Source of the DNA: Octopus sinensis
Lineage: Eukaryota
Direction: 5' to 3'
Length of the DNA stretch: 64,000 nucleotides
Assembly: GCF_006345805.1 (NCBI RefSeq)
Contig: NC_043014.1
Coordinates: 21,328,001-21,392,000, forward strand
A program made the translations under genes and the position numbers. The notes below the pieces were generated by a model. That model saw only the letters and a list, made by a program, of their open reading frames with translations, did not search any database and was not told where the DNA came from. This document shows positions 59,512 through 60,012 of this stretch, piece after piece. Numbering within the stretch: the stretch's first letter is position 1; the number at the start of each line of letters is the position of its first letter.

Positions 59512-60012
59512 TTACCCTCCTCCCACTATCACATGACTCGTGACGACCTAAGGCGGTGTCATTCTTTTTCGTATTGCCTTCAACCGCACTGGAGACGGTT
59601 TTCTGAACTCCTCGCTCTACCCCTCCCGTGTTTATAGTCCTTTAGGACAGTTTTCATTTCTCCTTCACGTTACCCATTTTTGTCTTGTCTTGCAGCCCCG
59701 AGGCTCTTTGTTGTATAGTATCATCATTACTGTCTTCGTGTGGCCCTAAGCCTTTAATGTGTTTATTGTTTTGCTCTTCGTCTGTCCACTAAGGGTCTCG
59801 TCTCGAGCCCGTCTCGTTTTGTTATGTTTTGGCCTCCTTCCCGGCAAGCTTCTTGTCGGTGCCTCCAGAGTGGAAGCAATATTATCGATAACGGCTGAAA
59901 TTGCGTTTGACCCTCTGGCCGATAACTGATGAAGAATTGGTGACCTTCTGTGTTTTCTGTTCGCCTGTGTATTTAGTATACGTTCGTCTGTTTGTTTACT
60001 GCACATTTTTTA
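59512..60012 (+). mobile_element. PLE-terminal-repeat-like non-coding element (second, decayed copy at 57615-57780 minus)
   Basis: Pyrimidine-rich tail between (TA)n tracts; 59810-59980 is similar to the reverse complement of 57615-57780. Confidence 0.5.
59865..59934 (+). ncRNA. Candidate non-circularly permuted hammerhead ribozyme
   Basis: GCAA TA TTATCG ataacggCT GAAA TTGC gtttgaccctctggc CGATAA CTGATGA AG. Helix III GCAA/TTGC, helix I TTATCG/CGATAA, helix II CT/AG, AUA triplet. Confidence 0.65.

What the first reader, a model, noticed from the sequence alone, without database searches (positions are those of the whole stretch)
59865..59934. Second, sequence-unrelated hammerhead with the same scrambled order
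Seen (+): GCAA-UA| (59876-59881), UUAUCG (59882-59887), ...CU-GAAA-UUGC (59895-59904), a 15-nt linker, then CGAUAA-CUGAUGA-AG (59920-59934). Helix I is a perfect 6 bp and helix III a perfect 4 bp plus A15.1-U16.1, both abutting the core exactly. Helix II is only 2 bp (AG/CU). The helices share no sequence with the HERO motif, yet the strand order is identical. The host is a different, non-coding repeat that resembles a PLE terminal repeat (inference).
Basis: partly seen in the sequence, partly recalled or inferred. Interest (0 to 1): 0.85.

Follow-up and report, generated by a model that had tools for sequence, protein, structure and literature searches.

The report
Rearranged hammerhead ribozyme in animal retroelements
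A ~700-base repeated element in this animal genome carries every conserved letter of a hammerhead ribozyme with its three strands in a rearranged order, and the same arrangement sits near the 3' end of Naiad retrotransposons that were reported to lack a normal hammerhead, so it is likely an overlooked self-cutting RNA of animal retroelements (cutting is predicted, not tested).

Summary
The motif is real, at the stated coordinates, and beyond chance (0 hits in 100 shuffles). Its strand order (cut site, GAAA, CUGAUGA) is the 'type-SGC' non-circular hammerhead permutation of Eckert et al. 2023, for which my searches found no animal or retrotransposon report. The host is a non-coding, head-to-tail unit of ~705-740 nt with scattered 5' ends, inverted 5' pieces and 3' ends in (TA)n: a retrozyme-like, likely Penelope-type non-autonomous element. 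Two corrections: helix II likely closes with G59934-U59896 after an extra nucleotide, as in the validated SGC ribozymes; and an outer helix extends helix III to 1 nt before the CUGAUGA strand. Seven more families in this genome share the architecture with different helix I/III sequences, including the Naiad element and the HERO-like 3' UTR. By eye, 10 published Naiad consensus sequences read as SGC and at least 3 as CSG, which would explain the 'missing' Naiad hammerhead. Against: no cleavage data, helix II almost absent, copy 5' ends not enriched at the cut, and this copy's cut-site strand is predicted to hide in a hairpin.

The parts
59512..60015 (+). Window copy of the host repeat: about 500 nt of a ~705-740 nt head-to-tail non-coding unit, between (TA)n runs
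59865..59873 (+). Outer helix, 5' strand (CCAGAG, bulged U, GG), extending helix III beyond an asymmetric loop
   Evidence: (99-110 of 124 copies paired per position)
59876..59880 (+). Block S: helix III 5' strand GCAA and U16.1
59881..59881 (+). A17; predicted cleavage 3' of this base (AUA triplet)
   Evidence: position by analogy with the hammerhead core; not tested
59882..59887 (+). Block S: helix I 5' strand UUAUCG; part of the palindrome UUAUCGAUAA (59882-59891; 12 nt in most copies)
59888..59895 (+). Linker from helix I to block G; may pair weakly with 59936-59939 in most copies (this copy has a rare C at 59892)
   Evidence: pairing is inference
59896..59904 (+). Block G: position 11.1 (U here, C in 75 of 124 copies), GAAA, helix III 3' strand UUGC
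59911..59918 (+). Outer helix, 3' strand (CC CUCUGG), followed by a single linker base at 59919
59920..59934 (+). Block C: helix I 3' strand CGAUAA, core CUGAUGA, extra purine 59933, G10.1 at 59934
57615..57775 (-). Second, decayed copy of the same repeat, facing the other way; 3 nt deleted at the cut site

Best explanation
The motif has the full hammerhead core in the non-circular S-G-C strand order, is conserved across a multi-copy head-to-tail non-coding element, and is predicted to cut its own RNA after A59881, likely turning tandem transcripts into unit-length RNAs that a Penelope-like (likely Naiad-type) reverse transcriptase copies into (TA)n sites. Shown: letters, order, helix I and III pairing, outer helix, tandem unit, inverted 5' pieces, TA-rich 3' ends, the same architecture in seven other families with different helix sequences. 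Inferred: blocks S and G fold first as a hairpin (helix III plus outer helix); the asymmetric loop between them acts as a hinge so that block C, 1 nt after the outer helix, folds back onto the hairpin loop in the same molecule and forms helix I and one G10.1-Y11.1 pair as a pseudoknot; cleavage is probably slow or helped by the element's protein; monomers may circularise as in retrozymes. The window copy is an old insertion with a wobble closing pair and is likely a poorer ribozyme than the family's source element.
For: Core and helices exact; 0 of 100 shuffles. In 124 copies the only core position with a common second allele is N7, the free position (U72, A41, C6). Between families 1 and 2 identity is 0.64-0.86 over the motif against 0.30-0.60 elsewhere for L110 vs L202. 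Eight families in the genome keep helix I and III with different sequences, e.g. helix I UUAUCG/CGAUAA, UUGUCG/CGACAA, CUGUCC/GGACAG, CUGCCC/GGGCAG, GAGGAG/UUCCUC. A relaxed descriptor on 1.07 Mb of held loci found 10 SGC hits outside the three families sought, against 10 in 183 shuffled passes and 0 in the reversed control. An extra base after A9 followed by G10.1-Y11.1 fits 108 of 126 family-1 copies, 31 of 35, 28 of 28, 30 of 30 and 27 of 30 in four other families and is the consensus of the validated HRIMA-1 ribozymes (supplement of PMC10085705). The outer helix ends a median 0-2 nt before helix I in six families. Tandem periods 705, 738, 791, 788 nt. Type-SGC RNAs cleave in vitro at 0.007-0.19 per min (PMC10085705 section 16).
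Against: No cleavage experiment. [quoted passage not shown] Helix I is A-U rich (-3.6 kcal/mol) and nested folding hides its 5' strand in the palindromic hairpin (unpaired 0.06; pseudoknots are not modelled). Copy 5' ends are not enriched at the cut: 6 of 76 matches (4 loci) start within 4 nt of it, about what the neighbouring density gives. No RT or endonuclease ORF is attached in 184 loci, and the unit shares no sequence with the genome's Naiad beyond microsatellites. A Poseidon hammerhead needed protein to cut, was dispensable for insertion in vitro, and showed no RNA reads ending at its cut (PMC11167929 passages).
Confidence: 0.62

Rival explanations
1. Same ribozyme, but active as a strand-swapped dimer: the helix III/outer-helix hairpin of one copy supplies blocks S and G, and block C comes from the neighbouring tandem copy or another RNA.
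For: The outer helix leaves only 0-2 nt to reach helix I, which an antiparallel dimer bridges without bending; the host is tandem; a palindrome overlaps the cut; vertebrate retrozyme hammerheads cut better as dimers (PMC7229834 passages).
Against: Every family seen has an asymmetric loop between helix III and the outer helix, which a dimer would not need (inference); the HERO-like element carries one motif per 3' end; co-folding two window copies did not give the swapped form (nested model only).
Confidence: 0.22
2. A hammerhead-derived but non-cleaving or barely cleaving RNA structure, kept as the binding or priming signal for the reverse transcriptase near the element's 3' end.
For: Helix II is nearly lost, and in several Naiad consensus sequences no closing pair fits in either register (by eye); no excess of copy ends at the cut; the motif lies 110-140 nt before the common 3' ends in three unrelated families; hammerhead cleavage was dispensable for a PLE in vitro.
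Against: All catalytic letters and a U-H triplet are kept in all eight families while helices change; a mere binding site would not be expected to keep G5, G8 and G12 or to tolerate change only at N7.
Confidence: 0.13
3. Chance arrangement of palindromic, A-U-rich sequence, multiplied by transposition.
For: CUGAUGA alone occurs at chance frequency in the window (12 vs 10.7); folding z-score is -0.62; copies of one family are not independent.
Against: 0 of 100 shuffles; eight families with different helix sequences; conservation peak between diverged units.
Confidence: 0.03

Closest known systems
Type-SGC hammerhead ribozymes (HRIMA-1 and variants; Eckert et al. 2023, PMC10085705)
   Same: Order S-G-C; full core; helix I strand linked directly to block G; extra base between CUGAnGA and G10.1.
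   Different: Found in hairpin-ribozyme-bearing metatranscriptome contigs; about 5-bp helix II and a helix enclosing block C. Here: chromosomal retroelement, one-pair helix II, 9-nt S-G linker, an outer extension of helix III instead of the enclosing helix.
Non-LTR retrozymes of animals (PMC7229834; preprint 10.64898/2026.07.22.740005)
   Same: Non-coding head-to-tail units with one hammerhead per unit, monomers and dimers dispersed in the genome, tied to Penelope-like elements.
   Different: Defined and searched for with type I hammerheads; here type SGC. Circular RNA not shown here.
Naiad Penelope-like elements (Craig et al. 2021, PMC8557442)
   Same: 5' truncation, partial tandems, inverted 5' copies, (TA)n targets; their consensus 3' UTRs read by eye as SGC or CSG hammerheads; Naiad-3_Chem has the same AAUGGCC-GAAA block as most copies of this family.
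   Different: Naiads encode EN and RT; this unit encodes nothing and shows no alignment to the genome's own Naiad.
Minimal type I hammerheads of other Penelope-like elements
   Same: Near the 3' end of the element, short helices, nearby palindrome, possible dimer activity (titles of Cervera 2014 and Lunse 2017 seen in reference lists only; details recalled).
   Different: Circular order C-G-S with the palindrome in helix III; here non-circular order and palindrome over the cut and helix I.

Membership tests
Hammerhead ribozyme | Core CUGAnGA, GAAA and UH, each abutting its helices | tested here: met
Hammerhead ribozyme | Helices I and III conserved with compensatory change | tested here: met
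   Across eight families; weak within families 1-3 (3 two-sided pairs in 14 hand-picked rows)
Hammerhead ribozyme | Helix II of two or more pairs closed by 10.1-11.1 | tested here: inconclusive
Hammerhead ribozyme | Site-specific self-cleavage | not testable with these tools
   needs an in vitro assay
Type-SGC permutation | Blocks in the order S, G, C | tested here: met
   definition in PMC10085705
Type-SGC permutation (HRIMA-1) | Extra base between CUGAnGA and G10.1 | tested here: met
Type-SGC permutation (HRIMA-1) | Helix enclosing block C that joins stems I and II; fixed helix I sequence AUGUU/AACAU | tested here: not met
   Helix I differs; no enclosing helix seen by inspection; the strand before block C is used by the outer helix
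Non-LTR retrozyme | Non-coding head-to-tail unit with a hammerhead per unit | tested here: met
   L110 holds two motifs 705 nt apart; L007, L097, L103, L104 wrap round
Non-LTR retrozyme | Type I hammerhead | tested here: not met
   order is SGC
Non-LTR retrozyme | Expressed as linear and circular monomers | tested here: inconclusive
   Only assembled contigs were available; family pieces occur in runs guessed to be RNA; the wrap-round joint is also in a DNA run
Penelope-like element (non-autonomous) | 5' truncation, partial tandems, inverted 5' copy, (TA)n targets | tested here: met
   features as listed in PMC8557442
Penelope-like element (non-autonomous) | Shared 3' end with an autonomous RT/GIY-YIG element | tested here: inconclusive
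   None found: 0 of 29 other copies of a neighbouring PLE ORF carry the repeat; no attached ORF in 184 loci; no alignment to 30 Naiad-type loci. Whole genome not scanned.

The most novel reading that the evidence does not exclude
Non-circularly permuted hammerheads (SGC and CSG) are the standard ribozyme of Naiad retrotransposons across cnidarians, nematodes, acanthocephalans, crustaceans and cephalopods, have been passed to a HERO-like non-LTR element and to many retrozyme-like families, and form a distinct hinged-pseudoknot subclass that cuts with an almost absent helix II. Animal genomes would then hold thousands of ribozymes that every type I-III descriptor has missed, and Naiads do not lack hammerheads.
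Probability: 0.55. Interest if true: 0.88.

Novelty: new variant of a known kind. Interest (0 to 1): 0.78.

Why it matters
Non-circular hammerhead permutations were known from 583 SGC and 2 CSG sequences found in a search that began in environmental RNA data (PMC10085705). Finding them in high-copy animal retroelements moves them into chromosomes and gives many natural variants to test. It would answer a stated puzzle: Naiads were reported to lack canonical hammerheads and to carry unexplained 'core' and 'half core' motifs (PMC8557442). It also means retrozyme surveys limited to type I motifs undercount. Each claim can be tested with a 90-nt transcript.

Tried and rejected
Rfam scans: no hammerhead family matches. 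PLE ORF beside copy L004 as the parent: rejected, 0 of 29 other loci of that ORF carry the repeat. Attached RT/EN ORF: none upstream in the sense orientation among 184 family loci; 17 had hits, traced to L004/L029 neighbours, another repeat or weak matches. Excess of 5' ends at the cut: not found; three loci fold back exactly at the palindrome, which a 12-nt palindrome could cause without cleavage. An upstream decoy strand that hides helix I as a general switch: not above shuffles (median fraction 0.17-0.76). Longer canonical helix II: none. Sequencing runs: no RNA holder listed; the four runs laid were contigs, so ends, strand and level could not be read. Literature searches without a report of SGC/CSG hammerheads in animal retroelements; the library lacks most subscription papers, and preprint supplements are closed.

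Full report
OBSERVATION. In hammerhead terms the RNA presents block S (helix III strand GCAA, U16.1, A17, helix I strand UUAUCG), then block G (GAAA, UUGC), then block C (CGAUAA, CUGAUGA). A descriptor for all six orders found three hits in the window, this one and two ordinary type I motifs, and none in 100 dinucleotide-preserving shuffles. CUGAUGA alone is at chance frequency, the nested folding z-score is unremarkable, and Rfam finds no hammerhead.

THE ORDER IS A KNOWN PERMUTATION. Eckert et al. 2023 (PMC10085705; I read the abstract, parts 2-4 of 8, Discussion part 1, section 16, search passages and supplement part 5 of 42) name this order type SGC, list 583 predicted examples and 2 of type CSG, and show cleavage at 0.007-0.19 per min for SGC constructs. 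The main text has no 'animal' or 'octopus' and mentions retrotransposons only in a reference; the supplement has no 'Metazoa'. Eight literature searches found no report of these permutations in animal retroelements.

THE HOST. The 231 nt around the motif have 931 first-look candidates in the 2.72-Gb genome; 40 were scored, giving 43 matches at 81-100% identity. The window copy spans 59512-60015 between (TA)n runs. In other loci the sequence past its 3' end runs on into its own 5' end: L110 holds two motifs 705 nt apart and L007 has a period of 738. 5' ends are scattered, many copies carry an inverted partial copy at the 5' side, and 3' ends cluster 100-245 nt after the predicted cut, mostly against TA-rich microsatellites. 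These are the insertion features that Craig et al. list for Penelope-like elements (PMC8557442, passages), and the tandem non-coding unit matches non-LTR retrozymes (PMC7229834 passages; preprint 10.64898/2026.07.22.740005 parts 1-2 of 5), except that those are defined by type I hammerheads. No autonomous partner was found.

CONSERVATION IN THE FAMILY. The only core position with a common second allele is N7. A diverged sister family (L187-L216) is also tandem (791, 788 nt) and resembles family 1 mainly over the motif: 0.64-0.86 identity against 0.30-0.60 elsewhere for L110 vs L202, with a noisier version of the same peak for L192.

OTHER FAMILIES. A relaxed descriptor on the 1.07 Mb then held (overlapping loci, enriched for repeats) gave 65 SGC hits in the families sought, 10 further SGC hits (one later recognised as family 2), 15 type I hits and no other order; reversed sequence gave 0 and 183 shuffled passes gave 10 SGC hits in all. 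Two of the new families were followed: 884 and 2350 candidates, tandem and inverted copies, no ORF recognised. Across eight families helices I and III are kept with different sequences, including two-sided changes between related strands (UUAUCG/CGAUAA to UUGUCG/CGACAA; CUGUCC/GGACAG to CUGCCC/GGGCAG). Families 4 and 6 rest on 5 and 3 copies. The HERO-like motif (window 20352-20408, minus strand) lies downstream of an RT frame (RVT_1, E 4e-12) and about 110 nt before a common 3' end in 30 of 30 loci.

TWO CORRECTIONS TO THE STRUCTURE. First, helix II. The HRIMA-1 consensus has the same extra base. The window copy then closes with G.U. Second, an outer helix continues helix III beyond an asymmetric loop and stops a median 0-2 nt before the helix I strand of block C in six families. 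The helix enclosing block C that Eckert et al. found necessary was not seen here.

THE NAIAD LINK. Craig et al. state that Naiads lack canonical hammerheads, that some hold the core without fitting descriptors, and mark eight as 'HHR_half_core'. I read the surroundings of core words in their consensus file by eye (19 CTGATGA places and 28 places of three other variants; not exhaustive, not computed, line breaks can hide motifs). Of 54 Naiad records, 10 read as SGC with helix I (4-6 bp), helix III and, where visible, the outer helix: Naiad-3_Chem, Amil, Aacu (one mismatch), Anas, Naiad-2_Movir, Plae, Naiad-4_Dst, Obim, Ovul, Esco. Three named records (Parc, Naiad-2_Nbra, Naiad-3_Nbra) and three whose names I did not confirm read as CSG with full helices I, II and III. 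Five of the eight half-core cases are thereby explained; Hpol is probable; Smim and Naiad-3_Dst are unresolved. In the coral, hydrozoan, ostracod and squid examples no standard closing pair fits helix II, which weakens the case for their activity. The Ovul-type motif has 136 exact pattern matches in this genome against 0 for the control, about 120 nt before a common 3' end in (TA)n, with RT-like remnants upstream in two of three loci examined (assignment by eye). The genome is therefore likely that of an octopus. Naiad-3_Chem shares AAUGGCC-GAAA with most copies of the window's family, and Naiad_Plae shares helix I and block G with the HERO-like motif.

MECHANISM. Most likely the S-G hairpin folds first (helix III probability 0.83-1.0 in three family-1 copies), the asymmetric loop bends, and block C docks on the hairpin loop in cis; cleavage after A59881 would release unit-length RNA from tandem transcripts for reverse transcription by a Penelope-like protein. 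A strand-swapped dimer is the main rival, and a non-cleaving recognition structure the next. All steps after folding are inferred. Against cleavage mattering in vivo: copy 5' ends are not enriched at the cut, the public runs could not show RNA ends, and a Poseidon hammerhead was dispensable for insertion in vitro (PMC11167929 passages). The window copy has a weak helix I, a wobble closing pair and a palindromic hairpin predicted to hide the strand after the cut, so a negative assay on it alone would not refute the family.

VERDICT. A real, conserved type-SGC hammerhead-like motif in a retrozyme-like element: a new variant of a known kind, in a setting not found in print by my searches, pointing to permuted hammerheads as the missing ribozyme of Naiads. 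Interest 0.78.

Noticed in passing
window 20352-20408 (-): HERO-like 3' UTR motif: type SGC, helix I GAGGAG/UUCCUC, outer helix CACGUC/GACGUG, extra U after the core; 2105 candidates in the genome, copies 93-96% alike; helix I and block G nearly match the published Naiad_Plae 3' UTR, suggesting a ribozyme module shared between unrelated retroelement classes.
   Followed up: partly
window 49100 (+) and 37887 (-) (position of C3): Two ordinary type I hammerheads with long helix II inserts.
   Followed up: no
window 57890-59467: 483-bp tandem repeat (2.4 copies, 97% alike) followed by an inverted piece of itself, lying between the two opposed copies of the SGC repeat; it contains CUGAUGA but was not called by either descriptor.
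   Followed up: no
window 60132-61180 (+): Mariner-type transposase remnant (Transposase_1, E 4e-25) inserted in the (TA)n run at the repeat's 3' side.
   Followed up: partly
L312-L331 (e.g. L313, L321, L322): Young SGC family (matches 90-98% alike, 2350 candidates, GUC triplet, 4-bp helix II, tandem periods about 730-800 nt): the best candidate for a cleavage and circular-RNA test.
   Followed up: partly
L282-L311; L064; L108, L154: Further SGC families: family 3 keeps helix I of the window's family but changes helix III; family 4 keeps helix III and changes helix I; family 6 has a two-sided change in helix I.
   Followed up: partly
L116, L175, L181 (also L119): Copies that fold back into a perfect inverted repeat centred on the palindrome at the predicted cut; fits snap-back of a cDNA ending at the cut, or template switching at the palindrome.
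   Followed up: partly
Supplement File S5 of PMC8557442 (Naiad_Parc, Naiad-2_Nbra, Naiad-3_Nbra and three unconfirmed records): Nematode Naiad 3' UTRs read by eye as type-CSG hammerheads with perfect helices I, II, III and a helix enclosing block C; only two CSG sequences were reported in PMC10085705.
   Followed up: partly
L004 1800-2915; L029 1860-1925: A high-copy PLE ORF family (RT plus GIY-YIG, 2769 candidates) with no hammerhead called within the held flanks, and a type I hammerhead of another element next to a family copy.
   Followed up: partly
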